From Candidatus Latescibacterota bacterium (GTDB lineage: Bacteria > Latescibacterota > UBA2968 > UBA8231): a stretch of DNA of 64,000 bases. The stretch covers positions 768,001 to 832,000 of the forward strand of contig OZ244561.1 in assembly GCA_965217585.1 (NCBI GenBank). Reading direction: 5' to 3'. The position numbers and the translations under genes are program-made. The notes under the pieces were generated by a model that made no database searches, was not told where the DNA came from, and saw only the letters and a program-made list of their open reading frames with translations. Position 1 is the first letter of the stretch. Each line of letters opens with the position of its first letter. Below are positions 31,336 to 51,412 of this stretch, piece after piece.

Positions 31336-32890
31336 CTAATCGTCCGGTTTTGTCTGGTTGGACAAGATGTATATGCCACTGCCCCCACCACGAACGGCAT
31401 TCTCCAGCACTACCAAATCTAGATCACCGTCTCCATCCACATCGCCTTCCACAATCGTCCCGCCCAACCCTTGCAACGGATAGCGGCCTTCCCGGAGTGG
31501 CATTCCGTTCTTTCTTCCCATACTGACGACGAGTGCCGGCTGGCGGAAATCGCGATCTACAAACATCGCGTCCAAGAGACCATCTTCATTTAGGTCGGAA
31601 AATACCGCATCCTGTTGCACGAAACCCCTTTCATACCATGCAACCTTGTCCAAGACGCCGTCTCCTCGATTGATTAAAAGATCTAGCCCGGTGAGCATAG
31701 GACTCATATTCATAGAGGCGACGGCCCTTCCCGCAACCATATCTGTATCTCCATCCCGATCAAGATCGCCCGCGTAGCATATCAAATCCGCCGCCGCATC
31801 CACTCTGAGATACTCTTGAATGGTTTCCCCATGTTCACCCAAATAGGTCGCCATATAGTCATGCGGGGTGCCAACATCGGGGCCTTTCCAAAGTAATCCA
31901 GTCTTTCGGCCGCCCGGAACATGGTAGATCAGACGCATGGGGAACCAAGCAAACTCGCCCAATTCGGGTGCCAGAGCCATTTGTTCGTCGAACTGTCCCT
32001 CACCGTCATTGAGCAAAATGACGGCACGCGCCGAGGTCTTGGAGTACAGCTCAGTCAACCATATATCCTCGTATCCATCCCCATCGACATCTCCTATACC
32101 CAAGGGGATCGCCCTATCTGCATGTCGTGCCACCGACCATCCGGCCGGTGCATGCTCCAGTATGTCGAGTGAATGACCAAAGCCCACCACGAGTTCCATA
32201 CGCTGATCGCCGCTTAGGTCGGCACCGACCAGCCTGGGTATGGGGCCGATTCTGGGAAATGGCTCTATGCGTACCTCGGGGGAGAAACGGCCCCCTTCAT
32301 TAAACGCGCACAGCCAACCGGCCCTGCCGGAATTAGGCTTGGGATCCCAGTCTTCCCATACTGCTGCCATATCCATGTCGCCATCGCCATCCAGATCTCC
32401 CAACTCGGCTACGGGCCTGCCGCGCTGTCCTATGTCCAATCCTTGCAGATCTAACGGGTAAAAGAGCGGTAGAGCAAAGAGCGTCCCGACAGGATGCGGC
32501 TCTTCCCTTCTCGGCGGCGCGAACTCTGAGTCTGGCCTTTCCGCATGGGTCAACTCGATCCAATCAACTTCCACCGCCTCGGGGATTTCCCCCGGTCCCT
32601 CCACAACCTTCGAATGGTTGAACAAAGACAGTTGAAGGCGTATTTCGATCAATTCATCTTCCCAGACGCGCCGATATACCTTCAGTCGTCTCCGAATGCA
32701 GCGGTGCTCTAATTACTGCTCCCGAAGCGTCACTTTCCCAGGCCACCCAACCCTGGGCGTCGTCTTCCTGGGTAAAATCCCAAGTGAGGGCACCGAGGCG
32801 CGAAGGATGTAGCAACCACAGGGCCACTAACGCGACCAATCCACCAGATCGCAACGCATATTTCACTGCCGATGCGGAGGGAGTAACCAT
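31336..32890 (-). pseudogene. FG-GAP propeller paralogue with an internal deletion/frameshift in the N-domain and no CTD
   Basis: Signal plus ALTWDFTQEDDAQGW (32654-32890) jumps to VWEDELIEIR...EVDWIELT and DxDGDGD repeats (31336-32652). Ends GIYILSNQTKPDD. Confidence 0.75.
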
Positions 32891-32990
32891 AGAACAACCT
32901 TCCTCTGAAGAGTTTAAAGTGAGTTAGGAGGGAAGTTATCTCAGGAAGCAGAGGCACAGCGCAGCACCGCCTAAAACACAGGAGGTCGAT

Positions 32991-33500
32991 TCATAGGGGG
33001 CTACCCGCAATCATTTTTTCTAGGTCCTCTGCTTGCTCTATCTGGCCCAGTTGACGGAAGATTTCCTGCGCCTGTTTCCAGTTCAATATCGCGTCGTAGC
33101 CCTTTCCCCAAGCCGAGTACATAGCGCCCAACCACACGTGAGCGGCAGCACAGGCCTCGTCGTTGCCCAGGCTCTTTTGGTAGATCAGGCATTTGCGGTA
33201 CATTTGCTCGGCGCGCTCGAACGAACCCTCGGCACAATACAGCTCGGCTAAGAGTCCCGCCTGCCAGGCAATGCCCTGCATATCCTCTATTTCTTCGAAC
33301 AACTGTAGCGATCGGTGCGCCATCTCGGTCGCGCGCTCGTGCGCTTGGCTCTTCTGATATACCACGCTCAGATAGCCGGCGGCGGCGGCTTGGTTGCGCT
33401 TGTGTCCCAAGCGCTCCTGCACGGACAGGGCTTTCCGATACATGGATTCGGCCTCGTCGAAGCGCTCTGTCTGAAGATAGATTTGTCCCAAGGTGCCGTA
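32991..33500 (-). pseudogene. TPR-repeat protein C-terminal fragment
   Basis: YGTLGQIYLQTERFDEAESMYRKAL repeats. No proper start; abuts the truncated transglutaminase. Confidence 0.65.
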
Positions 33501-34672
33501 CTCTGACGCGCCGCGATACCCTGTAGCCGACAAAGGGCGATAAACGCATTGGATAGTGTTATGCAGTGGCCGCCGCTATCGTTCAATACCACGTGGATAG
33601 AAGAGGCCAGATCCTGCGATTGCTCTTTGGTTTTTTTAAAGCGCTTGACCCCGACCAATTGGGCGTACATGCGACGCGCCTTTTCCAACGGATCTTCCAC
33701 GCCGTCCAGGTCCAGTTCGGCAAAAAAGTTTTTGACTACCGCTTCTCGCGCCAGCTTTGGGTCGATTTCGCTGTAGCGGCGGTATTCGCAGGCCGACAGC
33801 GAAGCCGAGGCCGTTGGGCCTATGCGGCCCTGCACGGTCAACTCACAGGTGTAAGAAAAATCCACCGAGGCTGAAGCGGCCTCTTCCACCTGGATGGGAT
33901 AGCCGTAGAAAAAACCGGCCTGCGGCACCAAGCAAGTTCGCAGGTCGTCTGGCACACAGGCGCGCAACTCGATATCCCCCTGATGCGGACTGGGGATGGG
34001 ATAGGGCAGAAAGAGCTGGGCCTTGGTGTCTGGCGGCAAGGTCGGTGGGTAGAGCCGATAGGTATAGGTGAGGCGGTAGCGCTGACGATCCCGATGCAGT
34101 GCGATGTGGCCATTGGCGTGCTGGAAAAAATGGCGGCGTCTCTCTTCGAGGGCGCGATAATCGCTTTCAAAAAACGCGGGCTCGTGGTCGTAGAGCCAGT
34201 TCCAGGAAGCGGCCCGATCAAAGGCGATTCGGCTGCCCTCTCGGGTGTGCGGCATACCGCGACTCAGGTTGCGGTGGAGCAAGGTGCGGATCGCCTCGAC
34301 GTCGAGGTCGGTCGGGGTGCTCAAGTTGAGAGAGTGGACAAATTCGGGCTCCGACATCAGGTAGGCCGTCCCTATGTGATGGGCGGAATGCTGGCCTACA
34401 AAAAAGGCGTCGACCGCGTACACCTGAAAGCCCTCGGCGGCGATTCGGGCAGCGTGGGGTCCCATCCCGGCGAATTCGACGGGGTAGCCGCGCGCCCGCA
34501 GCGCTCGTCCCACGACCAGCGGCCGGATGGTGTGGGCTAGGCTGTAGCCGTGGAAAAAGATCAGTACGGGACACTCGTGGTGCGGTAGGCGCTCGATCGT
34601 GCCGGCCCGTTGCAGGCGGACGCTCAAATGCTGCAAGCCAGCCGCTAAGTTTTGGCGCAATGTCTCTAGCAT
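33500..34672 (-). pseudogene. Chimeric remnant: glycosyltransferase N-terminus fused to a truncated transglutaminase-like gene
   Basis: HGYSLAHTIRPLVVGRALRARGYPVEFAG is a GT-B N-terminus. MSEPEF (ATG 34357) leads to GGHCITLSNAFIALCRLQGIAAR (TGase Cys motif), cut before the His/Asp. Confidence 0.65.
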
Positions 34673-34693
34673 GTCAGATTCAGATTCGTGCGT

Positions 34694-36793: not shown

Positions 36794-36849
36794 AATGCAC
36801 CTCCAAAGTCATAGGGACAGTTTATATCCCTCACCTCTAGCTCTATCGT

Positions 36850-38982
36850 CTAGTCGAGTTTGACCATCTTGCGGACGCGCGTCTGCTCGCCCACCTGCAG
36901 CCGATACAGATAAACCCCAGCGGCTACAGACTGTCCCAGCTCATCCCGGCCATCCCAGCCCAGCCGATGCTCGCCCGCCGCTAGCGGACCAGCCCACACC
37001 TGGCGCACTGGCTGCCCCAGCACATTGTAGATAGCTAATTCCACGTCCTCAGCTCCGGCTGGCACTATCAGGGGAATGATCGTGCTCGAATTAAACGGGT
37101 TGGGATAGTTGGCTCCCAAGCTAAAGGCCAAAGGCTGCACTGCCTCGCTGGCCATAGCCGTGACCGGAGCGCGCTGGTTGATAAAGACAAAGACGCCATC
37201 GTTGCCCGCACCCGGCTCCACCCCCTCCCCAGCTTCCGCACTGATACCCAGCACCACCAGATCATCGACCCCATCGCCATCCACATCGCCCGCCAGCACC
37301 TGCCGGCCCTTGCCTAGCAGCGGGTAGCGCCCTTCGAGCACGGGCACCCCGTCGCGCTGGCCCAGCAACACCACCAGCGCCGGACCGGTCGCCAAGTTGA
37401 TATCGACCAGGGCCACGTCGAGCAGCCCATCGCCGTTCAGGTCCCGGGCGATGCCCCTAGCCGAAAAGAAGACCTCGGAGTCGAACAGGGTGTGGTGAGC
37501 CACCACGCCCGACGCATCGAGGCGCCACAGTTCCAACCCGTGGTAGGTGTTGAAGTAGACGCGGGGACGTAGATTCCGCTCCGGGGAGCCGAGTAGATCC
37601 ACATGGCCATTGCCATCTAGATCGGCCAGCAGGTGTAGGGCGCACGGGTTGACCGCGGCCTCAAAGAAAAGCGCCGGCTCCGGCTGGGCCGCCCACGGAC
37701 GGCTCAGCCGCCAAGGGCCCAGAGGCTGGCCGCACCGTCGGTTCCACAACAGGCGCACGGCCTCGCCGGGGGGTTGGCCGGCGGGCAGGACGGGTACATA
37801 GCCGTTCAGAACCAACCGATCCCCCTGGACAAAGCCACCCTCGCCGTCGTTGGCCCACAACGTCGCGGAGGACGTCGCGTCCTCCCACTCGCCTTCTTCT
37901 GCTGCTACCACCAGATCCACATCGCCATCGCCGTCGCCATCGACCAGACCGATCAGCCGGACGCCAAAGGGCAGGTGCAGGATGGGTTCAAAACCGGCCT
38001 CGCCCCGGTTGAGCCACAGTTCGGTGATCAGACCCTCCGTAAGGACCAGATCCAGCAGCCCATCGCCGTTGAAGTCGTGGCCCTTGAGCTGAAATAAAGA
38101 GGCTTGGCGCGGGATCCGTTGGGTCGGCCTAAAGCGACCCTGCCCGTCGTTAGACGCCACCGTCAAGCGCATTTGATCGGCAACCAAGAGGTCTTCTTGA
38201 TGGACAGACACGGCCGTCACCAGATCCACATCCCCATCGCCGTCCACATCGCCCAACGCGCCATATGAGAAGAACGGGATCCCTGAATTGTCAACTCCTC
38301 CACCTAAGGGCGAAAAGACGGGATCGGCCAACAGCACGCCGGGCCGCCCCGACCCCACCGCCACCTCCCGAGGCGACAACTCCCCCAGCACCAACTCTTC
38401 GGTCCCCGTCAATTGAATCCAGTCCACTTCTAAAAAGTCGGGAAAGTCCTCCGGCCCCTCAGCATAGCTGTTTAACCCTAGGTATAGCTCAAAGTGAAAG
38501 AGAGTGTCTTGCCAAGCGAGACCCTCTTGGTCTAGCGCGATGGTGATGTCTTGCCATTCAGTAGTAAAGACGGGACCGGGACGAGGAGTCACTATATAAC
38601 CCGGTACTATGAATTCGTTCATTTCATAGAGGCGTCTGCGCTCGGCATTGAACCACGACATCTGGAGCCACCCCTCGGTAGGGCTATGGTGTATCAGACG
38701 CAGCCGGAGAGTGACGTGGTCGAACAGAGCCGAGTCTTCGCCGATCCACGGCGAAAGCAATTCAATGCTAGGGTACCGAGAGCCTGGTGCCGGTGCAATG
38801 CGCCACACGCCGTCGGCAACCTCGCTGTGCACCGTCGTCGTCGTTGCCGTACCACCCATACTGGCACCGGCCCCCTCCTGTGCCGCCCAGCCCCAAGTGG
38901 TCTCCTCGGCGAAATCCCACGTTAAGGCGAAAACCCCGGGTGCAGCCGCCAACAACAAAATGGCCAAGAACATGCCGCGCAT
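36850..38982 (-). CDS. FG-GAP + CTD paralogue (copy 2)
   Basis: Same architecture and motifs as copy 1. Confidence 0.88.
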   Translation of the reverse strand: MRGMFLAILLLAAAPGVFALTWDFAEETTWGWAAQEGAGASMGGTATTTTVHSEVADGVWRIAPAPGSRYPSIELLSPWIGEDSALFDHVTLRLRLIHHSPTEGWLQMSWFNAERRRLYEMNEFIVPGYIVTPRPGPVFTTEWQDITIALDQEGLAWQDTLFHFELYLGLNSYAEGPEDFPDFLEVDWIQLTGTEELVLGELSPREVAVGSGRPGVLLADPVFSPLGGGVDNSGIPFFSYGALGDVDGDGDVDLVTAVSVHQEDLLVADQMRLTVASNDGQGRFRPTQRIPRQASLFQLKGHDFNGDGLLDLVLTEGLITELWLNRGEAGFEPILHLPFGVRLIGLVDGDGDGDVDLVVAAEEGEWEDATSSATLWANDGEGGFVQGDRLVLNGYVPVLPAGQPPGEAVRLLWNRRCGQPLGPWRLSRPWAAQPEPALFFEAAVNPCALHLLADLDGNGHVDLLGSPERNLRPRVYFNTYHGLELWRLDASGVVAHHTLFDSEVFFSARGIARDLNGDGLLDVALVDINLATGPALVVLLGQRDGVPVLEGRYPLLGKGRQVLAGDVDGDGVDDLVVLGISAEAGEGVEPGAGNDGVFVFINQRAPVTAMASEAVQPLAFSLGANYPNPFNSSTIIPLIVPAGAEDVELAIYNVLGQPVRQVWAGPLAAGEHRLGWDGRDELGQSVAAGVYLYRLQVGEQTRVRKMVKLD

Positions 38983-39028: not shown

Positions 39029-40351
39029 TCACTCCACCGCCACCAATTGCTGCGCCAAAGAGCCTTCCCGCGTCAAGGCATACACCAAGATGTTGACGCC
39101 GAGGTCATAGGCCGGGAACTCGTCCGCGACGGCGACAAAACGACCGAGAATGCTGCGGGCTCGATCCCACTCGCGTTGCCGCTCGGCCTCGCCCCCCCAC
39201 ATATCTGGGTAGCGCTTTTGCGAATAGAGCCCCACTAGACGGCCATCGACCTCAATGCCCTCCAGGTAATTGGGCGACGGTTCGGCGCGGCCCGCAGTGG
39301 CAGTGTTCCAATACCAGTCGCTGAGGTCCCAGAAGCCCCGCGGCAGGGTGTCGATGTCGTAGAAGCAATGATAGAGCGGGTGCTCCGGCAGCAGCCGCAC
39401 AAAAGCCCAATCTTTGCCCTCGGCGTAGCCTATCTGCGCAAAGGCCTGGCGGATGAAATCGCGCAACGCCGGCAGATCGTGCACAAGGCCCTCGCCGATT
39501 TCTAGGGGCACAGAGACGATATCCGTATAGAGGAACCCCCCGGACGTCAGGTAGCGCCCCAGATTTTTCGCTTCGGCCTGAGTGAACGCCACCTCGTAGT
39601 TGATCGTCAGCAGCAGAAACGGCACTTGCAGCAGGCGCGGATCGTCCAAGTCAATGCCGTCGAGCACTTGGGTGCGCACGCCCGTGCGCTGGCTCATTTT
39701 GTCGGCCAGTCCCCGCAGGGTGCGCCGCTCGGCGACGCTCCGCCGGACAAAACCGCTGCGCGGCATCACTGCGGATTCGGCGCGCTCGAGGGCTTCGCTG
39801 TGGACACCCGATAGGTAGAGGAAGCCCTTGAGCGCGCGCCGGTCGCGTGGATCAACGACCACTAACGCCCGATGGCGACCCGTGTCGAGGGCATCCACGT
39901 CGAGCAATTCCATGTTCAGGTCGATCTCTTCTGCTTCCTGGTGGACCCCCTTTACGACGCCCGTGCGCATCTGAGGACCGATGTGTTGCGTCGGCGGGAG
40001 AGAAGAAGTAACCGTCGGCAAAACAGGGGGCGGAGCCTCGGTGACGGTTAGGGGTATGGACATGCCCTGACGCAGGTTGCGGCGGGTGGTTAAGGGGGCG
40101 GGGCGGACCGCGGCCACGGGGGTCGGTCGCACCGCTGGACGGCGCACCAGAGGTCTTTGTATCTGCGGGGACACCTGCCGACGAGCTAGGAGGCGGCGGT
40201 CGGGCGGTGGGCTTTTGTCAAATTTCAATAATATGGGTCGCCGGTGCTCTAGCGGCTGGTCGGCGCTCCAGAGGAAGAGCAAGGATAGATGGAGCACCGC
40301 AGAGAGCCCGATGAATCCGGCGATGCGGAGACGCTGGGGGGATCGGGGCAT
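39029..40351 (-). CDS. DUF4159 protein with a TonB-like N-terminus (paralogue of 29982-31313)
   Basis: Near-identical N-half to 29982-31313; C-terminal LGVNILVYALTREGSLA. Confidence 0.8.
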   Translation of the reverse strand: MPRSPQRLRIAGFIGLSAVLHLSLLFLWSADQPLEHRRPILLKFDKSPPPDRRLLARRQVSPQIQRPLVRRPAVRPTPVAAVRPAPLTTRRNLRQGMSIPLTVTEAPPPVLPTVTSSLPPTQHIGPQMRTGVVKGVHQEAEEIDLNMELLDVDALDTGRHRALVVVDPRDRRALKGFLYLSGVHSEALERAESAVMPRSGFVRRSVAERRTLRGLADKMSQRTGVRTQVLDGIDLDDPRLLQVPFLLLTINYEVAFTQAEAKNLGRYLTSGGFLYTDIVSVPLEIGEGLVHDLPALRDFIRQAFAQIGYAEGKDWAFVRLLPEHPLYHCFYDIDTLPRGFWDLSDWYWNTATAGRAEPSPNYLEGIEVDGRLVGLYSQKRYPDMWGGEAERQREWDRARSILGRFVAVADEFPAYDLGVNILVYALTREGSLAQQLVAVE

Positions 40352-40422
40352 AGTCGGTTTAGACTTTTCTCGTCTAAGTGTAAACATCTAATAGCGCTAG
40401 CGTTGTCGGTGGGTCGGGGCGT

Positions 40423-42672: not shown

Positions 42673-44837
42673 CTATTCGAGTTTGACCATCTTGCGGGTA
42701 CGCGTCTGCTCGTCCACCTGCACCCGATACAAATAGACTCCGTCGGCGACGGATTGGCCCTGCGCGTCCCGGCCATCCCATGTCAACCGATGCGAGCCGG
42801 CCGCCAGCGGACCCGCCCACACGTGGCGCACCGGCTGCCCTAAGATGTTATAGATGGTTAAGTCCACATCCCCGGCTCCGGCAGGTACGGTAAGGGGGAT
42901 GGTTGTGGCGGGATTGAACGGATTAGGATAGTTAGCACCCAAAGCAAAGGCCATTGGCGTTGCCGCCGTCTCGGCCGCGATAGCGGTGGCTGGAACGCCT
43001 TGGTTGAGGAAGACGAAGGCCCCGCCGGGACCGCCTTCCACACTCCGCCCCAGCACCACCAGATCGGTCGCCCCATCGCCGTTTACATCGCCGGCGAGCA
43101 CTTGGCTACCAATGCCCGGCAGGGGGTAGCGCCCTTCGACGACGGGCACCCCATCGCGCTGGCCGACCAGCACCACCAGCGCCGACCCGGTGGCCACGTT
43201 GACATCGACCACGGCCAGGTCCAACAGGCCATCGCCGGTCAGGTCACTGGCAAGGACCCCACCCTCATCCGACACGAGCACCTGCGGCCCGAGCAGGGTG
43301 TGGCGTTCCACCCCGCCCGAGGCGTCCACACGCCACAGCGCCAAACCGTGGTGGGTGGTGGCACCAAAAAAGTCGAAGTATAGATTCCGCTCAGGGGTCC
43401 CGACGAACTCCACCGCCCCATCGCCATCCAGATCGGTGAGTAGGTACAGGTCACAGGGATTGACCGCGGCCTCAAAAAACAGCGGTGGCTGCTGGCTGGC
43501 CGCCCACGGCTGGGTCAGTTGCCAAGGCCCCGTGGGCTTGTAGCACACTCGGTTCCACAACAGGCGCACGGCCTCGCCCAACGGTTGCCCAGCGAGCAGA
43601 AAAGGATTGAGCTCCTCTTCGCTGTCGAGGGCGAACCAATCACTGTGGGCAAAACCGGCCGCGCCGTCATTGATCCACAGAGTCACGTTGGACCACGTGT
43701 CGCCTTCTATGACCAACAGGTCCACATCGCCGTCGCCATCGCCATCGGCTAGGCCAAGGGAAAAGACGTCGGATAGCTGGAGGATGGTTTCAAAGCCATT
43801 CTCGCCCCGGTTGAGCCACAATTCGAGGGTCAGACCTTCCCGAAAGGCCAAATCGAGCAGCCCATCCCCGTCGAAATCGCCCCCTGCAATCTCCATGATA
43901 GGCGCGAACTCGCCTTGGCTTGGGCGGAGAACCTCTCGGGTGGGGACCAAGCCGCCCAAACCGTCGCTGGTCGCTACCGTCCAGCCCGCTTGGGCCGTCA
44001 TCGTACTCGTCTCTGGGACACCGTGTAGTGTGTCCAGACCACTACCAGATCGGCATCGCCATCGCCGTCCACATCGCCCAAAGTACCTTGCGATAGTGGG
44101 CCACCGATACCTTGGCCCAGCACAGAAAAGCGCGGTTCGGCGAACAACGCGCCGGGCGACCCGGCCTCCACGGCGATCTCCCGGGGCGGCAATTCCCCCA
44201 GCACCAGCTCTTCGGCCCCCGTCAGTTGAATCCAGTCCACTTCGACAAAGGCTGGATGATCGGCCGGGCCCTGTGGGTCGATGTTTAAGTTTAGGTCTAG
44301 TTGCAAGTGGAAGAGGGTGTCCTGCCAAGTGATCGCGAGCCACTCTTCTTCTGGGTTCGCTTCCGCCGCGGCCTCCAAGGCGCGTATGTCTATGGTGACG
44401 TTTTCCCATTCCGTGGGATAGAGTTGATAACGGCCCGTATAAAACCCCGCCCGGCTGTCCATTCCGCGGTCGCCTGCTTCCTTCCTGAGGTGTCTGGACT
44501 CGACATTGGACCAGTCCATCAGGAGGTTCCCCTCGGTGGGGCGATCGTGTACGATGCGTAGCCGTAGGGTGACCCGGTCGAACAGGGCGGAGTCTTCCCC
44601 AATCAGCGGCGAGAGCAAGCGAATGGCTGGTCGTTGACCGACCGGCACCGGCGCAATGCGCCAGACGCCGTCTTCGACTTCGCTGTACACCGTGGTGGGA
44701 CTAACTCCACCGTTATTGCCTAAGTAGCTCTCGTGGGCCGTCCAGCCCCAAGTGGTGCCCTCGTCAAAATCCCACGTTAAGGCAAAGGCGCTAGGTGGAG
44801 CCGCCAATAACAAAATTGCTAAGAGAACACAGTGCAT
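42673..44837 (-). pseudogene. FG-GAP + CTD paralogue (copy 4), frameshifted near 44000-44035
   Basis: N-half is in ORF 43998-44837 and C-half in the frame of 42673-44409. The 2165-nt span is not a multiple of 3. Confidence 0.85.
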
Positions 44838-44931: not shown

Positions 44932-44968
44932 GTGCTTAATTAAACCGTATTGATCTTAAAACGGCTTC

Positions 44969-47101
44969 TCACAAGCTCGCCTCAATCGCCGCTACCGTCG
45001 CGTCTGTATTCCCCCTTAAGCCAGAATCCTCCACGATCAGCCCTTGTGAGTCCACCAAGTAATACGAAGGAATGCCCATCACTTGGTAGGACTTGGCCAC
45101 GTCCGCACCCCAGCCGTCCCCCCGCACGTGGACGCCTTTGATCTCGTGTTTGTCAATCGCCTCTCGCCAAGCAGCCTCATCCGCGTCCAGCGATATGTTG
45201 AGGAAGACGACCGGCCAGCCAGACGTCTTTTCCTTGACTTCTCGGAGATAGGGTAGGTCGCCGATACACGGGACACACCAACTCGCCCAGAAGTCGAGCA
45301 GAACCACCTGCCCCTTGAACTGGCTCAGCGATACCGGCTGACCGTCGAGGTCGTCGAGGGTAAAGTCGGGGGCGGCTTGTCCGGGTTGTAGCTTCATGGC
45401 GGTAGCCAGAGCCACTAGGACGGCCTCATTGTATTCCGGATACGGGTTGATCTGTTGGAACTCTTCCCACTTGCGCTGGGCCGCCGCAAAGCCTTCACTG
45501 CCACCGCGCTTGAGCGTATTGATCAGCTCTCCGGCTAAAAACCAGTAGAGCACTCTCCCCTCCAGTTTTTCTTTGGCCAAGTTGTATTTAGACCCAAACC
45601 AGTGTCCTTTTTCGGCATAGATCGAATCGAGTTGCGCTTGGGCGGCTTCCGATAGTCCCAAGCCCGATAGATCAATCTTCGCCGACAGCCCGAGCGGTTG
45701 GCGATGTTCGTACATCGAGTCGAGCTGGGCCTGAGCGGCTTCCGACAGCCCCAAGCCCGATAAATCGAGCTTTGCAGACAGCTTGAGTGGCTCTTTGGTT
45801 AGGGAATTCCACGGTACTGAGAAAGGCTTATGGAACACCACCTCTCCGTCCGTCGTATCCGCCCTAGGCTTCTCTTCCTCACTTGGGTAGACGTTGAGAG
45901 CCCTAGCGGACTTTTCGTACAGAGAGTCGAGTTGCGCGTGGGCACTTTCCGAAACACCAAACGCCGATAAATCGTACAGTTCGGACAGCTTGAGCCAGCG
46001 GCCATCCCTTTCGTACAGAGAATCGAGTTGCACTTGGGCACTCGCTGAAACACCAACCACGGACAAATTGACCATTTTCGACAGCACGGGCTGTCGGCCG
46101 TCCTTTTCGTACAGGGAGTCGAGTTGCGCTTGGATCTCCTCCGACAACTCCAAACCCGATAGATCGTACCGCTTGGATAGCTTGGGGGGGCTCCATTCGA
46201 ACTCGTTATGGTCTTCCTAGCCCAAGGTCCTCTCCACAAACTCGCGATAATGCCAGACGCCTATGGCCTTTTCGTCCACTAGGGGGAATTCCTGCAGGAA
46301 GTCGTAGTACTCTGGGGTGATGTCTCTGTTCTTGCGTTTGTTGGCAAAGCGGTAAGCCGTCGAGTAAGACATCATCTCATTGACCCACATATAGTTGACG
46401 TAGTTTGTCACATAGTCGATGCACCCTAAAGACAGCGCATATCGCTCGCGCCCTGCGGCCAAGAACTCGAACTGATCTCGCCGCTGCTGTTCCATGCGGC
46501 GCGAAAACTCTTCCAACTCCAGACCCTCGTAATCGAGGTGGAAGAATTGGAAGCGCGGAAACCACTCGGAAGTGAAGCGGCTGTTGTCTGCGTTGGAGCC
46601 GCTGAACGAATAGGAAGGAACGAAAAAGCCCTCCTCCACGGCCACGTGCAGACTGTCGCCGGGTTCGACGAAGAGAGTCAGGAATTTGCGCTCGAAAAGG
46701 AACGATCCTAACCACTGTACCCATTTCCATCTCGGCTGCCCGCCTTCGAAATACCCCCAGACGAGGGTCCCTCGGACGACAGGCAGCTCAAGGGCGAAGC
46801 GATCCAAGCTGTCGAGCGCGACGCGCTGCTCGGGGCTTTCCAGCGCCGACAGCGATTCGTACCTAAATGTGATTTCCCGCGAGCGAGGATCCCGGACTTC
46901 GCCGGTGATGATCACAACCGATGGCTGGCTCTGAGTACTATCTGCGTCCAAACGAGGACTCGCTACCATGCTTTCGCTGCTCACCATGGTAGCCGTTGCG
47001 GAACTCTCCTGTGCCGCCCAGCCCTCGGCGAAATCCCACGTTAAGTCAGAGACTCCGTGTGGAGCCGCCACCAACAACATTGCAAAGAGAACGCGGCGCA
47101 T
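44969..47101 (-). pseudogene. TlpA/redoxin with an FG-GAP-derived leader and helical repeats, one in-frame TAG at 46217-46219
   Basis: ORFs 46217-47101 and 44969-46153 share a frame with 63 open nt between them. FWASWCVPC, GIPSYYLVD; leader MRRVLFAMLLVAAPHG...LTWDFAEGWAAQE. Confidence 0.85.
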
Positions 47102-47161
47102 AATACACCTCCAGAGTTTGTGGTCGTGTGGTTTAGATCCCTCATCTCCAAGCCCTATCGT
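47102..47161 (-). repeat. Conserved 60-bp cassette spacer
   Basis: ...CCTCCAGAGTTTGTGGTCGTGTGGTTTAGATCCCTCATCTCCAAGCCCTATCGT. Confidence 0.85.
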
Positions 47162-49246
47162 CTATTCGATTTTGACCATCTTGCGGGTACGCGTCTGATC
47201 ATCCACCTGCAACCGATACACATAGACCCCAGTGGCGACGGGTTGACCCTGCGCATCCCGGCCATCCCAAGTCAGCCGATGCTCGCCAGCGGGCAGCGGC
47301 CCCGTCCACACCTGGCGCATCGGCTGCCCCAGGACATTGTAGATGGTTAAGTCCACGTTCCTCGCTCCGGCGGGTACGACCAAGGGGATGGTCGTGGTGG
47401 GATTGAACGGATTGGGATAGTTGGCACCTAAAGCAAAGGCTGTTGGCGTGGCCGCCTCGGCCGCTATTGCTGTGGCCGGAGTGCCTTGGTTGGTCAAGAC
47501 GAAGACGCCGCCTTGGCCGCTGGCCGGATTCGTTCCCAGCACGACCAGATCGATGTCGCCATCGCCGGTGACATCGCCGGTGAGGACCTGATTGCCCTCG
47601 CCGGGCAGGGGGTAGTAGCCTTCGAAGACGGGTGCGCCGTCGCGCTGGCCGAGCCACACCAATAGAGCCGGACGACCGATGCTCAAGTTGCCAGCGACCA
47701 TAGCCACATCCAGCACGCCATCGCCGTTGAGGTCGCTGGCCGTGGCTGCGTGCGCCGGGAGCACCTTCCAATCGAGCAAGGAATGGCGTGCCACCACGCC
47801 GGAGGCGTCCAGACGCCACAGGGACAAGCCGTAGTAGTGGTTGCCGAAGAAGAAAAAACCTTTGGGGGAGTCGAGTAGGTCCACCATCCCATTGCCGTCG
47901 AGATCAGCCATCAGGTGCAGGGCGGAGGGATTGACCGCGGCCTCGAAAGAGCGCGGTGGTTCTGGGATGGCGGCCCACGGTCGGGTCAGTTGCCAAGGCC
48001 CCTGGGCCTGGTACCACAACAGGCTCGCAGCTTCGCCGAGGGGTTGCCCGGCGGGTAGGTAGGCAGGGAAATGCTCTCCGCTGTCGAGGATGAATTCCTC
48101 GCCGCGGACAAAGTCGTAGCCGTCGTTGATCCATAGAACCACTTTTCGGGACAACGCGTCGTACTCCCCGACCAACAGGTCCGTATCGCCGTCGCCGTCG
48201 CCATCGGCCAAGCCAACGAGCCAGACATCGAACAGTTGCAGGGAGGGTTCAAAGCCGTCGCCCCAGTTGTACCACACTTCGACGATTCCGTTCTCGTCAA
48301 CGACCAGATCTAGGAGTCCATCGTCGTCGAAGTCGTTTCCCCAGAGGTCCATGATTGGAAAGGAGTCAAAGGATGCGGTGGTTGAGAGAGTGACCTCTTG
48401 GGTGGGTTCAAAGCCGCCTAGCCCGTCGTTGGACGCCACCGTCCAGCCTAGTTGTCTTTCGCGGTCCACGAGGCGGTTCCAAGCCACCACGAGATCCGCA
48501 TCGCCATCGCCGTCTACGTCGCCCACCGCGCCTTGCGATGCTCGCCAATAGATTGGGGTGCCGATGCCCTTTCCAAGCGGAAAAAAGTCGGGGGCGGCGA
48601 ACAGCGTGCCGGGCGGCTCCAACTCCACACCGATATCCCTAGGCACCAATTCCCCCTGCGCCAACTCTTCGGCTCCTGTGAGCTGGATCCAGTCTATTTC
48701 TAGAAACTTTGGGTGGTTGTCCACGTCCTGCGAGTCCCGATATAACAGCATGTCTATAAAAAAATTAAAAAGAGTATCCTGCCAGGTGATCGCCCATTCT
48801 GTGTCTGCTTCTGCCAAGGCGCGTAGATCTACGGTGATGTCTTCCCATTCGATGGGATACGATTGCTCACGTCCCGTACTAAACACTCCTTTTGTGTCAG
48901 AGTCAGGGTGGCTCACGGCATTGGACCAAATCATCGAGAATTGTTCCTCAGTGGGGCTATGGTGTATGAGGCGCAGCCGTAGGGTGAGGCGGTCGAACAG
49001 GGCCGAGTCTTGCCCGATCAACGGTGAGCGCAATTGAACAGTGGGTCTGCGACCAGGCACGGGCGCAATGCGCCAGACGCCATCGACGACTTCGCTCTGT
49101 AGTGGTTCGAGACTGCCTCTTGTATTGCTATGAAAACCTTCCCGGGCGGTCCAGCCCCAAGTGGAGCCGTCGGCGAAATCCCACGTTAAGGCAAAGGCCC
49201 CGTGTGGAGCCGCCACCAGCAACATTGCAAAGAGAACGCGGCGCAT
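47162..49246 (-). CDS. FG-GAP + CTD paralogue (copy 5)
   Basis: Same architecture; very similar to copy 6 outside the loops. Confidence 0.88.
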   Translation of the reverse strand: MRRVLFAMLLVAAPHGAFALTWDFADGSTWGWTAREGFHSNTRGSLEPLQSEVVDGVWRIAPVPGRRPTVQLRSPLIGQDSALFDRLTLRLRLIHHSPTEEQFSMIWSNAVSHPDSDTKGVFSTGREQSYPIEWEDITVDLRALAEADTEWAITWQDTLFNFFIDMLLYRDSQDVDNHPKFLEIDWIQLTGAEELAQGELVPRDIGVELEPPGTLFAAPDFFPLGKGIGTPIYWRASQGAVGDVDGDGDADLVVAWNRLVDRERQLGWTVASNDGLGGFEPTQEVTLSTTASFDSFPIMDLWGNDFDDDGLLDLVVDENGIVEVWYNWGDGFEPSLQLFDVWLVGLADGDGDGDTDLLVGEYDALSRKVVLWINDGYDFVRGEEFILDSGEHFPAYLPAGQPLGEAASLLWYQAQGPWQLTRPWAAIPEPPRSFEAAVNPSALHLMADLDGNGMVDLLDSPKGFFFFGNHYYGLSLWRLDASGVVARHSLLDWKVLPAHAATASDLNGDGVLDVAMVAGNLSIGRPALLVWLGQRDGAPVFEGYYPLPGEGNQVLTGDVTGDGDIDLVVLGTNPASGQGGVFVLTNQGTPATAIAAEAATPTAFALGANYPNPFNPTTTIPLVVPAGARNVDLTIYNVLGQPMRQVWTGPLPAGEHRLTWDGRDAQGQPVATGVYVYRLQVDDQTRTRKMVKIE

Positions 49247-49306
49247 TGTTTACCTCCAGAGTTTGTAGTCGTGCGGTTTAGCTCCCCCACCTCCAAGCCC
49301 TATCGT
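49247..49306 (-). repeat. Conserved 60-bp cassette spacer
   Basis: TGTTTACCTCCAGAGTTTGTAGTCGTGCGGTTTAGCTCCCCCACCTCCAAGCCCTATCGT. Confidence 0.85.
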
Positions 49307-51412
49307 CTATTCGATTTTGACCATCTTGCGGGTGCGCGTCTGGTCGCCCACCTGCAACCGATACACATAGACCCCAGCGGCAACAGGTTGACCCTGCGCA
49401 TCCCGGCCATCCCAAGTCAGCCGATGCTCGCCAGCCGGCAGCGGCCCCGTCCACACTCGGCGCATCGGCTGCCCCAGGACATTGTAGATGGTTAAGTCCA
49501 CGTTTTTGGCTCCGGCGGGCACGGCCAAGGGGATGGTCGTGGCGGGATTGAACGGATTGGGATAGTTGGCTCCGAGGGCAAAGGTCGTGGGCGTGGCCGT
49601 CTCGACCGTCACGGCTGTGGCCGGGGTGCCTTGGTTGATCAAGACGAAGACGCCACCGAGGCCGCTGGCCGGATTCGTTCCCAGCACGACCAGATCGGTG
49701 TTGCCATCGCCGTTGACATCGCCGGTGAGCACCTGATTGCCCTCGCCTGACAGGGGGTAGTAGCCTTCGAGGACGGGTGCGCCGTTGCGCTGGCCGAGCC
49801 ACACCAATAGAGCCGGACGACCGATGCTCAAGTTGCCAGCGACCATAGCCACATCGAGCACGCCATCACCGTTGAGGTCGCTGGCGGTGGCTTCGTGCGC
49901 TATGAACGCCTTCCAGTCGAGCAAGGAATGGCGTGCCAACACGCCCGAGGCGTCCAGACGCCACAGAGCCAAGCCGTAGTAGTCGGTTTCACCGAACCTA
50001 TCTATGCTCTCAGGGGAGCCGAGTAGGTCCACCATCCCATTGCCGTCGAGATCAGCCAGTAGGTGCAGGGCATAGGGATTGACCCCGGCTTCGAAAGAGC
50101 GCGGTGGTTCTTGGCTGGCGGCCCACGGCCGGGTCAGTTGCCAAAAGTCTTGAGGCTCAAAGCAGCCCCCATTCCACAACAGGCTGGCGGCTTCGCCCAA
50201 GGGTTGGCCGTCGGGCAGATAGGGGCACAGCTTCTCTCTGTCGGGGGAGAATGTATCACTGCTGACAAAATCGTAGCCGTCGTTGCTCCACAAGGTCGCG
50301 TAATACGATTCGCCGTCATACCCCCCGACTAACAGGTCCACATCGCCGTCGCCGTCGCCATCGACCAAGCCAATGGGCCAGACGTCGAACAGTTGCAGAG
50401 CGGGATCAAAGCCGTCGCCCCAGTTGTACCACACTTCGACGATTCCTCTTTCGGCAACGACCAGATCTAGGAGTCCATCGCCGTCGAAGTCGCTTCCCCA
50501 GAGGTCCATGATTGGAAAGGAGTCAAAGGATGCGGTGGTTGAGAGAGTGACCTCTTGGGTGGGTTCAAAGCCGCCTAGCCCGTCGTTGGATGCCACCGTC
50601 CAGCCCAGTTGGCTTTCGCGGTCCACGAGGCGGTCCCAGAGCACCACGAGATCCGCATCGCCATCGCCGTCTACGTCGCCCACCGCACCTTGCGATGCTC
50701 GCCGATAGCTTGGGGTGCCGATGCCCTTTCCGAGCGGAAAAAAGTCGGGGGCGGCGAACAGCGTGCCGGGCGGCTCCAACTCCACACCGATATCCCTAGG
50801 CGACAATTCCCCCTGCGCCAACTCTTCGGCCCCGGTCAGCTGGATCCAGTCTATTTCTAAAAACTTTGGATGGTTATCCACGTCCTGCGAGTCCCGATAT
50901 AACACCATCTCTATATCAAAATTGAAGAGAGTATCCTGCCAGGTGATCTCCCATTCTGTGTCTGCTTCTGCCAAGGCGCGTAGATCTATGGTGATTTCTT
51001 CCCATTCGAGGGGATAGGATTGCCGACGTCCCGTACCAAATACTCTTTTTGTGCCAGAGACAGGGCGGCGTCTTTTCTCGGCATTGGACCAGTTCATCAC
51101 GAATAGTTCCTCGGTGGGGCTATGGTGTATGAGGCGTAGCCGTAGGGTGAGGCGGTCGAACAGGGCCGAGTCTTCCCCGATCAACGGTGAGCGCAATCGA
51201 ACGGTGGGCCTTCGACCGGGCACGGGTGCAATGCGCCAGACGCCATCGACGACTTCGCTCTGTAGTGGGTCTCTATTAATAAAAGTTACATTGCTATGAC
51301 CACTTTCCCGGGCGGTCCAGCCCCAGGTAGAGCCATCGTCGAAATCCCACGTTAGAGCAAAAGCCCCGTGTGGAGCCGCCAAGAAGCCAATAGTGAATAG
51401 CAAGTGGCGCAT
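49307..51412 (-). CDS. FG-GAP + CTD paralogue (copy 6, first in the array)
   Basis: Same architecture, ending ...RKMVKIE. Confidence 0.88.
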   Translation of the reverse strand: MRHLLFTIGFLAAPHGAFALTWDFDDGSTWGWTARESGHSNVTFINRDPLQSEVVDGVWRIAPVPGRRPTVRLRSPLIGEDSALFDRLTLRLRLIHHSPTEELFVMNWSNAEKRRRPVSGTKRVFGTGRRQSYPLEWEEITIDLRALAEADTEWEITWQDTLFNFDIEMVLYRDSQDVDNHPKFLEIDWIQLTGAEELAQGELSPRDIGVELEPPGTLFAAPDFFPLGKGIGTPSYRRASQGAVGDVDGDGDADLVVLWDRLVDRESQLGWTVASNDGLGGFEPTQEVTLSTTASFDSFPIMDLWGSDFDGDGLLDLVVAERGIVEVWYNWGDGFDPALQLFDVWPIGLVDGDGDGDVDLLVGGYDGESYYATLWSNDGYDFVSSDTFSPDREKLCPYLPDGQPLGEAASLLWNGGCFEPQDFWQLTRPWAASQEPPRSFEAGVNPYALHLLADLDGNGMVDLLGSPESIDRFGETDYYGLALWRLDASGVLARHSLLDWKAFIAHEATASDLNGDGVLDVAMVAGNLSIGRPALLVWLGQRNGAPVLEGYYPLSGEGNQVLTGDVNGDGNTDLVVLGTNPASGLGGVFVLINQGTPATAVTVETATPTTFALGANYPNPFNPATTIPLAVPAGAKNVDLTIYNVLGQPMRRVWTGPLPAGEHRLTWDGRDAQGQPVAAGVYVYRLQVGDQTRTRKMVKIE

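What the first reader, a model, noticed from the sequence alone, without database searches (positions are those of the whole stretch)
31336..51412. Antibody-like paralogue array: constant framework with hypervariable loops
Seen: the ~190-aa N-domains share a framework (TWDF..GW.A.E / SEV.DG.WRI / SPLIG.DSALFDR..LRLR..H / W.N / EW..ITID / WQDTLF / E.DWIQLTG.EE) but differ completely at fixed loops. Loop 1: GFLGRRSVPALNT, GAGASMGGTATTTT, SFYSDVPTNTLAH, SYLGNNGGVSPTT, GFHSNTRGSLEP, SGHSNVTFINRDP. Loop 2: SEARRIRAADPSDFWESRF, AERRRLYEMNEFIVPGY, AVSHPDSDTKGVF, AEKRRRPVSGTKRVF. Even the near-identical copies 5 and 6 differ mainly there, with indels. Inference: a jelly-roll binding domain under diversifying selection, displayed on an integrin-like propeller.
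Basis: partly seen in the sequence, partly recalled or inferred. Interest (0 to 1): 0.85.

Follow-up and report, generated by a model that had tools for sequence, protein, structure and literature searches.

The report
Expanded family of secreted binding proteins
This is a tandem array from a large, lineage-restricted family of secreted bacterial proteins whose two outer domains have diverged at particular surface patches, which looks like a fixed set of receptors with different specificities and not like an antibody-style hypervariable system.

Summary
The quoted motifs and loops are real. Window 31336-51412 (minus strand) holds five intact copies, one frameshifted copy and one degraded copy. 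The genome, a 7.3 Mb Latescibacterota chromosome, has at least 19 full-length paralogues in three arrays.

Each protein has four parts:
- a signal peptide;
- a roughly 190-aa N-domain with no Pfam match, predicted as a CBM-like beta-jelly-roll;
- a seven-bladed FG-GAP propeller;
- a T9SS type-A sorting domain.

Variation is not confined to the N-domain. The propeller is equally divergent, and its variable sites lie on the face opposite the Ca-binding loops.

In the N-domain variable segments, omega is about 1.4 on branches between paralogues and 0.66 within orthologue groups. The framework shows no such shift (0.23 vs 0.19). Site models favour a class with omega above 1 in both the N-domain and the propeller.

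The N-domain and the rest of the gene have incompatible trees, so the genes are recombinant mosaics. I found no mutagenic machinery (reverse transcriptase or invertible repeats) beside the arrays.

In other Latescibacterota the same two-domain module forms the outer part of membrane-tethered ECF sigma factors, which supports a ligand-sensing role.

Verdict: a germline-encoded repertoire of surface binding proteins, not antibody-like. The ligand is unknown. Clustering of the selected sites in 3D could not be tested.

The parts
49307..51412 (-). Copy A, 701 aa: signal peptide, N-domain, FG-GAP propeller, T9SS sorting domain
   Evidence: ORF and translation. Pfam FG-GAP_3, FG-GAP and FlgD_ig. NCBIfam TIGR04183 scores 37.6 bits against a cut-off of 23.
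50798..51355 (-). Copy A N-domain (aa 20-205): CBM-like beta-jelly-roll with no Pfam family
   Evidence: No Pfam hit. AF2 model pLDDT 89.9, pTM 0.86. Fold matches to CBM families. No PDB sequence match.
51260..51310 (-). Copy A variable segment 1 ('loop 1', aa 35-51), between strands 2 and 3 of the model
   Evidence: Column identity 0.12. omega 1.18. Sites 38, 44 and 46 are in the omega>1 class.
51092..51106 (-). Copy A strand beta-7, aa 103-107; alternate residues 103, 105 and 107 vary
   Evidence: Nonsynonymous change counts run 7,1,8,1,7 along the strand. All three sites have posterior above 0.9.
51017..51082 (-). Copy A variable segment 2 ('loop 2', aa 111-132)
   Evidence: Column identity 0.13. 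omega 1.42. Sites 113 and 130 are in the omega>1 class.
49640..50746 (-). Copy A seven-bladed FG-GAP propeller (aa 223-591); a DxDxDG Ca-binding-type motif in six of seven blades
   Evidence: AF2 model pLDDT 88.5, pTM 0.88, with 29 strands. Foldseek hits to the FG-GAP proteins CRTAC1 and integrin alpha, plus a KICSTOR chain. omega by loop class.
49316..49564 (-). Copy A C-terminal T9SS type-A sorting domain (aa 617-699)
   Evidence: TIGR04183 above its cut-off. The genome has PorU, SprA and 133 such domains.
47162..49246 (-). Copy B, 694 aa, 84% identical to A; a mosaic relative to A
42673..44837 (-). Copy C, broken by a frameshift near 44015-44021 (a net 10-nt deficit relative to paralogue e2)
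40423..42579 (-). Copy D, 718 aa, the most divergent copy; closest in this genome to the module of the sigma-fused relatives
36850..38982 (-). Copy E, 710 aa
34694..36793 (-). Copy F, 699 aa
31336..32923 (-). Copy G, degraded: the N-domain core is deleted and frameshifted, and there is no sorting domain
   Evidence: Pfam finds FG-GAP only.
39029..40387 (-). DUF4159 companion gene (452 aa)
   Evidence: Pfam. Close copies recur in the 6.79-6.82 Mb array.
29982..31400 (-). Second DUF4159 companion gene (472 aa)
44969..47101 (-). Companion gene pair: an unknown 294-aa protein (46217-47101), which begins with the family's signal peptide and first N-domain residues, and a TlpA-like redoxin (44969-46153)
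   Evidence: The pair recurs in the other two arrays.
52853..56008 (-). Sigma-54 activator with a Reg_prop/Y_Y_Y propeller sensor, just upstream of the array
   Evidence: Pfam. Four paralogues at 62-63% identity lie inside the 6.79-6.85 Mb array.

Best explanation
The region is one of three tandem arrays of a multigene family found in one family of Latescibacterota.

What each gene encodes. Each gene encodes a Sec-exported protein that the type IX secretion system most likely carries across the outer membrane. The protein is then either attached to the cell surface or released. Its working part has two domains. The first is a CBM-like beta-jelly-roll. The second is a seven-bladed FG-GAP propeller that carries Ca-binding-type motifs.

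How the family evolved. The family grew by tandem and segmental duplication with gene birth and death. After duplication, amino-acid change was accelerated at discrete surface patches. These patches are two loops and the solvent-facing side of two strands in the jelly-roll, and the 2-3 and 4-1 loops on the top face of the propeller. Gene conversion and recombination reassorted blocks, including whole N-domains against propellers. Once a paralogue's patch sequences were established, they were kept among orthologues in different species.

What this amounts to. The result is a stable, germline-encoded repertoire of about 20 binding proteins per genome, each probably with its own ligand specificity.

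Shown here: the architecture, the folds, the distribution of variation, the selection contrasts, the recombination, and the presence of T9SS genes.

Inferred: surface display, ligand binding, and that the ligands are glycans (suggested by the CBM-like fold and by sulfatase and BNR genes nearby).
For: Architecture.
- Pfam finds FG-GAP_3, FG-GAP and FlgD_ig in all five intact copies.
- TIGR04183 scores above its cut-off.
- The genome has PorU (627 bits against a cut-off of 420), SprA, and 133 sorting-domain matches.

Folds.
- N-domain model: pLDDT 89.9. It matches CBM28 (Z 10.9), CBM22 (10.6), CBM15 (10.2) and CBM27 (9.9). Foldseek gives CBM86, CBM11, CBM22 and CBM30 at E about 1e-5 to 1e-4.
- Language-model neighbours are Lyase_N, CBM30, Exop_C and SGBP_B_XBD.
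- Propeller model: pLDDT 88.5, seven blades, nearest to FG-GAP proteins and integrin alpha.

Family size and range.
- The genome has 23 matches, 19 of them full-length, in three arrays.
- 36 of 168 genomes of the phylum have a match, and all 36 are in one family.
- The N-domain has only 141 cluster representatives among 1.84 billion proteins.

Selection.
- Eight closest paralogues: variable segments omega 1.37, framework 0.22.
- 23 sequences: variable segments have omega 1.41 on between-paralogue branches and 0.66 within orthologue groups (Fisher odds ratio 2.1, p=0.0007). The framework has 0.23 and 0.19 (p=0.33).
- Pairwise: orthologue-like pairs 0.54, paralogue pairs 1.16.
- M2a against M1a for the N-domain: LRT 44.5, with 7% of sites at omega 2.9. 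For the rest of the protein: LRT 150, with 5% at omega 3.6.
- Controls are null: framework columns LRT 0, sorting domain LRT 1.1.
- Propeller top loops have omega 0.82 and bottom loops 0.23 (odds ratio 3.8, p=7e-24). All 13 selected propeller sites lie in top loops or at strand ends next to them.

Recombination.
- Each partition rejects the other's tree (delta lnL 172 and 300; AU p=4e-124 and 4e-9).
- The nearest neighbour of A and of B switches along the gene.

Ligand-sensing role.
- 5 of 8 alternative-architecture relatives scanned are ECF sigma factor + membrane helix + this same N-domain + propeller, with no sorting domain. One of them is named as Latescibacterota.
Against: - No ligand is known, and no sequence-level membership in any CBM family was found: Pfam and NCBIfam give nothing for the N-domain, and a PDB sequence search gives nothing.
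- The propeller fold list is flat (Z 19-23 for many unrelated seven-blade propellers) and includes enzymes, so a catalytic role is not excluded.
- omega for the variable segments as a whole is only marginally above 1 (P=0.02-0.03). The segments were chosen after seeing the data on 8 of the 23 sequences.
- The site-model test is my own implementation with branch lengths fixed up to a scale. Demonstrated recombination and uncertain alignment in indel-rich loops can both inflate such tests.
- Parsimony undercounts changes on long branches.
- Spatial clustering of the selected N-domain sites was not tested.
- Expression and surface location are not shown.
Confidence: 0.6

Rival explanations
1. One reading: an antibody-like system in which a constant propeller displays a jelly-roll whose loops are under continuing diversifying selection or hypermutation.
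For: There is a conserved framework with very divergent loops. A class of N-domain sites has omega 2.9. Even the 84%-identical pair A/B concentrates its N-domain differences in the loops.
Against: The propeller is as divergent as the N-domain (0.46 vs 0.45 column identity) and has its own selected sites. Loops are conserved between orthologue-like pairs (omega 0.54 and 0.66). The only reverse transcriptase match is at 4.94 Mb, far from the arrays. No inverted repeats that could support an invertible switch were found. All copies are complete genes with their own signal peptides, not cassettes.
Confidence: 0.08
2. The proteins are carbohydrate-active enzymes: an N-terminal CBM targets a catalytic beta-propeller (a lyase or hydrolase), and the paralogues differ in substrate.
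For: CBM-plus-catalytic-domain-plus-T9SS-tail is a common layout for secreted glycan-degrading enzymes (established knowledge). The propeller model aligns to a rhamnose-glucuronate lyase (Z 21.4), an aldos-2-ulose dehydratase (Z 22.4) and a glycoside hydrolase (Z 19.3). A sulfatase and BNR-repeat genes lie in the window.
Against: Those Z-scores are no higher than for integrins, lectins and WD40 proteins in the same flat list. The invariant and near-invariant propeller residues in 45 homologues are mostly Asp and Gly, most of them in the Ca-binding-type DxDxDG motifs, and I saw no obvious conserved catalytic residue on the variable top face. The same module also serves as the outer part of membrane-tethered ECF sigma factors, which fits sensing better than catalysis.
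Confidence: 0.15
3. Nothing adaptive is happening: the surface loops of redundant paralogues simply drift under relaxed constraint.
For: omega for the variable segments as a whole is near 1 (1.16-1.41). Loops of any beta-sandwich or propeller tolerate change. Several copies are broken or truncated.
Against: The same segments have omega 0.54-0.66 among orthologue-like sequences at similar synonymous divergence, so they are constrained once established. The between/within contrast is significant in the variable segments but absent in the framework. M2a beats M1a in two partitions and not in two controls.
Confidence: 0.1
4. The proteins are exposed surface antigens or phage receptors, diversified to escape phages or a host's recognition rather than to bind different ligands.
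For: They are probable surface proteins with fast-evolving exposed patches and frequent recombination. The best structural match of the N-domain is a phage baseplate protein domain (8gtc_M, Z 12.4).
Against: An arms race predicts continued turnover between close relatives, but the loops are largely kept among orthologues. Maintaining about 20 intact copies and fusing the module to sigma factors argues for a function that needs the module's own binding activity.
Confidence: 0.07

Closest known systems
Type B carbohydrate-binding modules with a beta-jelly-roll fold (CBM4, CBM22, CBM28, CBM15, CBM27, CBM11, CBM30)
   Same: The predicted fold is the same (VIA Z 9-11 over 133-150 aligned residues; Foldseek E 2e-5 to 4e-4). 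It is an N-terminal appended module of a secreted protein. Variation sits in loops and on one side of strands. From recall, in these CBMs a sheet face and its flanking loops form the binding cleft. CBM4-2 has been used as an engineered diversity scaffold (PMC2783032, abstract seen in the listing).
   Different: There is no detectable sequence similarity to any CBM family or solved chain. No recognised catalytic partner domain is attached. Carbohydrate binding is untested. The family is confined to one family of Latescibacterota.
FG-GAP / VCBS propeller proteins (integrin alpha head, CRTAC1)
   Same: Pfam FG-GAP and FG-GAP_3 score above their cut-offs. The model has seven blades. DxDxDG hairpins are conserved on one face and variable loops lie on the opposite face. 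From recall, that opposite face binds ligand in integrins. Among the top Foldseek hits are CRTAC1, integrin alpha-v, integrin alpha-IIb and a KICSTOR chain.
   Different: There is no beta-subunit partner, I-domain or leg domains. The protein is bacterial, fused to a CBM-like domain and a T9SS tail, and present in about 20 paralogues per genome.
T9SS type-A C-terminal-domain cargo proteins of Bacteroidota
   Same: The C-terminal TIGR04183 domain scores above its cut-off. PorU sortase and SprA translocon genes are present. Type-A cargo is anchored to anionic LPS or released (abstracts of PMC9143113 and PMC10202324, seen in the listing).
   Different: The host is Latescibacterota, not Bacteroidota. 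Attachment chemistry and surface location are untested here. The cargo domains are of a new sequence family.
Diversity-generating retroelement targets and antibodies (framework plus hypervariable loops)
   Same: A conserved scaffold carries a few highly variable segments.
   Different: Diversity is encoded in separate germline paralogues that are conserved between species. There is no nearby reverse transcriptase and no invertible repeat. Variation includes indels and also affects a second domain.
ECF sigma factors with fused C-terminal extensions
   Same: Five relatives carry Sigma70_r2/r4 domains, and the three whose sequences were fetched and read also show a hydrophobic membrane segment, followed by this N-domain plus propeller. 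C-terminal extensions are the second most common way ECF sigma factors are regulated (PMC7826278, passages read).
   Different: None of the window's copies has a sigma domain. They have a signal peptide and a sorting tail instead. No fused form was found in this genome with these queries.

Membership tests
T9SS type-A cargo | C-terminal sorting domain (TIGR04183 Por_Secre_tail) above the curated cut-off | tested here: met
   Copies A and D score 37.6 bits against a cut-off of 23. In the whole-genome scan the ends of the other copies also match above the cut-off.
T9SS type-A cargo | The genome encodes the T9SS machinery | tested here: met
   PorU scores 627.5 bits against a cut-off of 420. SprA scores 483.5 bits against a cut-off of 200. 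PorK/L/M/N and PorV were not searched.
T9SS type-A cargo | N-terminal Sec signal peptide | tested here: inconclusive
   Read from the sequence only: a basic start, a hydrophobic run and an A-x-A motif before LTWDF in the copies. No signal-peptide predictor was available.
T9SS type-A cargo | Secretion and surface attachment depend on T9SS | not testable with these tools
   Needs proteomics or genetics.
FG-GAP / integrin-alpha-like propeller | FG-GAP repeats above the Pfam cut-offs | tested here: met
   FG-GAP_3 scores 59.9-80.6 bits (cut-off 26.9) and FG-GAP scores 30.7-47.7 bits (cut-off 22.1) in the five intact copies.
FG-GAP / integrin-alpha-like propeller | Seven four-stranded blades closed into a ring | tested here: met
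   The AF2 model has pLDDT 88.5 and pTM 0.88, with 29 strands assignable to 7 blades. It aligns to integrin alpha heads at Z 21-22.
FG-GAP / integrin-alpha-like propeller | Ca-binding DxDxDG hairpins | tested here: met
   The motif is present in 6 of 7 blades of copy A, and its Asp residues are invariant in 45 homologues. Metal binding itself was not tested.
Carbohydrate-binding module (a CAZy CBM family) | Sequence membership in a defined CBM family | tested here: not met
   No Pfam or NCBIfam family covers aa 20-215. No PDB chain matches at E up to 10. dbCAN/CAZy models were not available.
Carbohydrate-binding module (a CAZy CBM family) | Beta-sandwich jelly-roll fold | tested here: met
Carbohydrate-binding module (a CAZy CBM family) | Demonstrated carbohydrate binding | not testable with these tools
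   Needs glycan arrays or ITC.
Diversity-generating retroelement target | Reverse transcriptase in the locus | tested here: not met
   The single RVT_1 match in the genome is at 4.94 Mb. The arrays are at 0.80-0.82, 3.64-3.66 and 6.79-6.84 Mb.
Diversity-generating retroelement target | Template/variable repeat pair with adenine-specific differences | not tested
   The direct-repeat scan showed only paralogue-to-paralogue repeats. No dedicated search around the reverse transcriptase was made.
Gene family under diversifying selection | A class of codons with omega above 1 that is preferred over a nearly neutral model | tested here: met
   M2a against M1a: LRT 44.5 for the N-domain and 150 for the rest. 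The controls are null. Caveats: my own implementation, and recombination is present.
Gene family under diversifying selection | The selected sites cluster on one surface | not testable with these tools
   No model coordinates are returned. Indirect evidence only: positions i, i+2, i+4 on strand beta-7, and all propeller sites on the face opposite the Ca loops.

The most novel reading that the evidence does not exclude
One lineage of Latescibacterota has evolved a dedicated, modular ligand-recognition system built from a two-domain sensor: a new CBM-like jelly-roll plus an FG-GAP propeller. The binding faces of both domains are diversified by positive selection after duplication and reshuffled by recombination. 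The sensor is deployed in two ways. One is as roughly 20 T9SS-displayed surface receptors per genome. The other is as the outer domain of membrane-tethered ECF sigma factors. The same recognition scaffold would then serve both capture or adhesion and transcriptional sensing of environmental or host glycans.
Probability: 0.25. Interest if true: 0.7.

Novelty: new variant of a known kind. Interest (0 to 1): 0.48.

Why it matters
The family shows how an uncultured phylum builds a large repertoire of secreted recognition proteins from one scaffold. It defines a new sequence family with a CBM-like fold, restricted to one bacterial family and expanded to about 20 copies per genome. It also gives a clean case in which post-duplication acceleration can be separated from later constraint, because orthologue groups exist across several complete genomes. 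The link to ECF sigma factors suggests the module is a sensor, which gives a starting point for finding what these bacteria recognise. It does not reveal a new diversification mechanism. Duplication, point change, indels and gene conversion are enough to explain what is seen.

Tried and rejected
- Diversity-generating retroelement. The only RVT_1 match in the genome is at 4.94 Mb, far from all arrays. Rejected as the source of variation.
- Invertible switch or shufflon. One weak inverted pair (29 nt, 76% complementary) lies inside the redoxin gene, and none flank the copies.
- Sigma-54 promoters upstream of the copies. The motif gave 72 matches against 74 expected by chance, and none fall in the short gaps before the copies.
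- Metagenomic variant density.
  - 20 holder runs were found, all stored as contigs, and no RNA holder was listed.
  - Four runs were laid.
  - The pieces shown were only 130-394 bases long.
  - Hundreds of pieces at 88-99% likeness fit two places.
  - Paralogues and strains could therefore not be told apart.
  - No conclusion was drawn on SNV density or expression.
  - Joints skipping about 2.1-2.25 kb, the spacing of A and B, may be recombinants or assembly cross-links.
- Spatial clustering of the N-domain sites. The structure tools return no coordinates, so this was not computed. A canonical jelly-roll strand order (recalled, not tested) would put beta-6, beta-7 and beta-10 in one sheet.
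- PDB sequence search with the N-domain. No match at E up to 10.
- Earlier findings of this scan.
- Literature.
  - 'Latescibacteria' with 'FG-GAP' found 0 papers.
  - A paper on sponge-associated Latescibacterota (PMC12993501, term search only) has no occurrence of VCBS, integrin, T9SS, secretion system or adhes-.
  - 'VCBS repeat', 'T9SS' and 'paralog' found nothing on this family among the 10 papers listed.
  - These three searches are the only basis for saying I found no description of the family in print.
- A sigma-fused form in this genome. Not found with three fused relatives as tblastn queries. The best sigma-part hit, at 5.59 Mb, is an unrelated ECF protein whose extension has no DxDxDG motif.
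- Habitat. Not established here, because run organisms are coded and the record titles of relatives name only the phylum.

Full report
**What is there**

On the minus strand of window 31336-51412 lie five intact genes of 694-718 codons: A 49307-51412, B 47162-49246, D 40423-42579, E 36850-38982 and F 34694-36793. Copy C (42673-44837) is split over two reading frames by a net 10-nt deficit near 44015-44021 relative to its closest paralogue. Copy G (31336-32923) keeps the signal peptide and the first and last strands of the N-domain. It has lost the core of that domain, is frameshifted, and has no C-terminal domain.

Other genes sit between the copies:
- two DUF4159 genes;
- a transglutaminase-like gene;
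- a pair made of an unknown 294-aa protein and a TlpA-like redoxin.

**Architecture**

Pfam finds FG-GAP_3, FG-GAP and FlgD_ig in every intact copy and nothing for residues 20-215. NCBIfam places the last ~80 residues in TIGR04183, the T9SS type-A sorting domain, at 37.6 bits against a cut-off of 23. The genome encodes PorU (627 bits, cut-off 420), SprA, and 133 matches to the sorting domain. The start of each protein reads as a Sec signal peptide ending in A-x-A. This is from the sequence only, not from a predictor.

The N-domain was folded with 57 homologues and gives a confident beta-sandwich (pLDDT 89.9, pTM 0.86).
- Its best matches are a phage baseplate protein domain (Z 12.4) and a run of carbohydrate-binding modules: CBM28 10.9, a mannanase CBM 10.8, CBM22 10.6, CBM15 10.2 and CBM27 9.9. 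Laminin IV-type domains also appear.
- Foldseek ranks CBM86, CBM11, a xylanase CBM, CBM22 and CBM30 first, at E 2e-5 to 1e-4.
- A language-model search points the same way: Lyase_N, CBM30, Exop_C and SGBP_B_XBD at 0.93-0.95.
- There is no sequence match to any solved chain.

The region after the N-domain folds as a seven-bladed propeller (pLDDT 88.5, pTM 0.88). Among the best Foldseek hits are the FG-GAP proteins CRTAC1 and integrin alpha-v/alpha-IIb, together with a KICSTOR chain. The exhaustive search gives a flat list at Z 19-23 that also contains lectins, enzymes and WD40 proteins. The fold alone therefore says little about function.

**Family size and range**

The N-domain matches 23 places in this single-contig 7.32 Mb genome, in three arrays at 0.80-0.82, 3.64-3.66 and 6.79-6.84 Mb. 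Nineteen of these are full-length genes of 694-731 codons, and the rest are truncated.

The window array and the 6.79 Mb array share companion genes and flanks: DUF4159, PD40, a sigma-54 activator, and a pair made of an F5/8-type-C protein and an 881-aa protein. The 294-aa/redoxin pair recurs in all three arrays.

An exhaustive search of 1.84 billion cluster representatives found only 141 with this N-domain. A word-indexed search found 565 close relatives, and the few named ones are 'VCBS repeat-containing protein' from Latescibacteria, with one from Gemmatimonadota. All 28 loci fetched from species-representative genomes are titled Latescibacterota or Latescibacteria, except the two from one MAG titled Gemmatimonadetes. 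Across the phylum, 36 of 168 genomes have a match.

**Where the variation is**

Across the six window copies, mean column identity is 0.45 in the N-domain, 0.46 in the linker plus propeller, and 0.78 in the sorting domain. There are five low-identity islands in the N-domain and ten further on. The 19-paralogue identity matrices agree that N-domains are as similar as propellers, or slightly more so.

For the closest window pair, A and B, 18 of 32 N-domain differences fall in the two named loops (odds ratio 8.1, p=1e-6). That is only 18 of 123 differences overall, and 71 are in the propeller. It is not special to the N-domain, and the propeller is not a constant platform.

**Selection**

Eight closest paralogues (A, B and six from the 3.65 Mb array). 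I counted changes by parsimony on a maximum-likelihood tree. Five N-domain segments together have omega 1.37 (S 41, N 199). These are aa 35-51, 103-107, 111-132, 148-156 and 164-170 of copy A. Other regions have these values:

| Region | omega |
|---|---|
| N-domain framework | 0.22 |
| Propeller | 0.55 |
| Sorting domain | 0.27 |

On strand beta-7 the nonsynonymous counts alternate 7,1,8,1,7, so one side of the strand varies and the other does not.

Twenty-three sequences. Adding 15 genes from other genomes revealed orthologue groups that share loop sequences across species.

| Comparison | Variable segments | Framework |
|---|---|---|
| 12 orthologue-like pairs, pooled | 0.54 | 0.18 |
| 9 within-genome paralogue pairs, pooled | 1.16 | 0.16 |
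| Branches between paralogue lineages | 1.41 (S 45, N 213; P=0.02 against omega=1) | 0.23 |
| Branches within orthologue groups | 0.66 (S 72, N 162) | 0.19 |

The between/within contrast is significant in the variable segments (Fisher odds ratio 2.1, p=0.0007) and not in the framework (p=0.33). The pairwise comparisons were made at similar synonymous divergence.

Site models. A likelihood comparison I wrote myself uses M1a against M2a with F3x4 codon frequencies, a fixed topology and branch lengths scaled by one factor.

| Partition | LRT | Class with omega above 1 |
|---|---|---|
| N-domain | 44.5 (p=2e-10) | 7.1% of sites at omega 2.9 |
| Rest of the protein | 150 (p=2e-33) | 5.0% of sites at omega 3.6 |
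| Control: N-domain framework columns | 0 | none |
| Control: sorting domain | 1.1 (p=0.58) | none |

In the N-domain, sites 38, 44, 46, 103, 105, 107, 113 and 130 have posterior above 0.9. In the rest of the protein 14 sites do, 13 of them in the linker and propeller.

Propeller loops. I assigned strands to blades from the model. The loops on the face opposite the DxDxDG hairpins (2-3 and 4-1) have omega 0.82. The Ca-loop face has 0.23 (odds ratio 3.8, p=7e-24). All 13 selected sites lie in those top loops or at the strand ends next to them. That the Ca hairpins mark the lower face and that the opposite face binds ligand is taken from what is known of integrins, not tested here.

Caveats:
- The variable segments were picked after seeing the eight-sequence data.
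- Parsimony undercounts changes on long branches. The framework control argues that this is not the whole effect.
- Loop alignments contain indels.
- Recombination, shown below, is known to inflate site-model tests.

**Recombination**

The N-domain partition rejects the tree of the rest of the gene (delta lnL 172, AU p=4e-124). The reverse also holds (delta lnL 300, AU p=4e-9).

Along the gene, A and B are 97% identical in nucleotides over aa 264-318 but only 68-76% identical over aa 337-434. One gene from another genome (L001) is closest to B in aa 337-434 and closest to A in aa 418-507. Synonymous divergence between A and B swings from 0-0.1 to 0.4-0.55 between blocks. The genes are therefore mosaics, made by exchange between paralogues in blocks of some tens of codons. 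N-domains have also been reassorted against propellers.

**What it is not**

I found no sign of a mutagenic or switching device.
- The genome's only reverse-transcriptase match is at 4.94 Mb.
- No inverted repeats flank the copies.
- Every copy is a complete gene on the same strand.

I could not test within-population variation. The public runs that hold the stretch are stored as short contigs that mix paralogues and strains.

**A clue to function**

Among the distant N-domain relatives, 5 of the 8 with unusual lengths that I scanned begin with ECF sigma-factor domains (Sigma70_r2 and r4). After these come this N-domain and an FG-GAP propeller, with no sorting tail. In the three whose sequences I fetched and read, a hydrophobic membrane segment separates the sigma part from the module. 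One is named a sigma-70 family factor of a Latescibacterota MAG. In this genome, the copy most like their module is the divergent copy D, at 36% identity over 634 residues.

ECF sigma factors regulated by fused C-terminal extensions are a recognised class (PMC7826278, passages read). Use of the same two-domain module as the outer part of a one-protein signalling device argues that the module recognises an external ligand. It makes a purely catalytic role less likely.

The CBM-like fold, and the sulfatase, BNR and F5/8-type-C genes in the window, make glycans the most likely ligands. That step is inference.

**Comparison with known systems and verdict**

The parts are of known kinds: a T9SS type-A cargo tail, an FG-GAP propeller and a CBM-type fold. 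Multigene families of surface binding proteins are common. Four things are new:
- the N-domain sequence family;
- its restriction to, and expansion in, one lineage;
- the parallel diversification of two binding faces, with modular recombination;
- the dual use of the module as secreted protein and as sigma-factor sensor.

Three literature searches found no description of the family. The antibody analogy fails on mechanism, because the variation is germline-encoded and conserved between species. It also fails on anatomy, because the supposed platform varies too. I rate this a new variant of a known kind, of moderate interest.

Noticed in passing
P0205, P0223, P0247, P0249, P0256 (relatives): These are fusion proteins of 775-993 aa. 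Each has an ECF sigma factor followed by this family's N-domain and an FG-GAP propeller, with no T9SS tail. A hydrophobic membrane segment after the sigma part was seen in the three whose sequences were read (P0205, P0223, P0256). One is named as Latescibacterota.
   Followed up: partly
window 46217-47101 and 44969-46153: An unknown 294-aa protein begins with the family's signal peptide and first N-domain residues and then continues as unrelated sequence. A TlpA-like redoxin follows it. tblastn finds 14 places for the first and 16 for the second across the genome, including all three arrays.
   Followed up: partly
window 45611-46184: The N-terminal half of the TlpA-like redoxin is built from five tandem copies of an 82-nt unit spaced about 93-96 nt apart (one gap of 207 nt). 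Each copy encodes a repeat containing the motif AQAQLDSLYE.
   Followed up: no
window 52853-56008: A 1051-aa sigma-54 activator whose sensor part is a Reg_prop/Y_Y_Y propeller. No signal peptide or membrane segment is visible in the sequence. Five paralogues at 62-69% identity exist, four of them inside the 6.79-6.85 Mb array.
   Followed up: partly
window 25408-28053 and 28023-29678: An 881-aa protein with no Pfam or NCBIfam family lies next to an F5/8-type-C protein with a FlgD_ig tail. Each has at least 60 tblastn places in the genome (60 was the cap I set). A 74-80% identical pair flanks the 6.79 Mb array, so the two arrays are a segmental duplication.
   Followed up: no
window 8433-10736 and 12746-14695: Two proteins combine a BlaR1-type M56 peptidase domain, an ExbD domain and a C-terminal FlgD_ig domain, which is an unusual fusion.
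   Followed up: no
window 10001-18000: G+C falls to 0.49-0.55 here, against about 0.57-0.68 in the rest of the window.
   Followed up: no
G000:C1 6807690-6808124, 6813576-6813656, 6840866-6841360: Further truncated family members, with open frames of 236, 550 and 202 aa. Together with copies C and G these point to gene birth and death in the arrays.
   Followed up: no
window 47162-51412 (table 5): Contigs from four coded public runs contain joints that skip or go back about 2.1-2.25 kb, which is the spacing of copies A and B. These could be recombinant paralogues in other strains or assembly cross-links.
   Followed up: no
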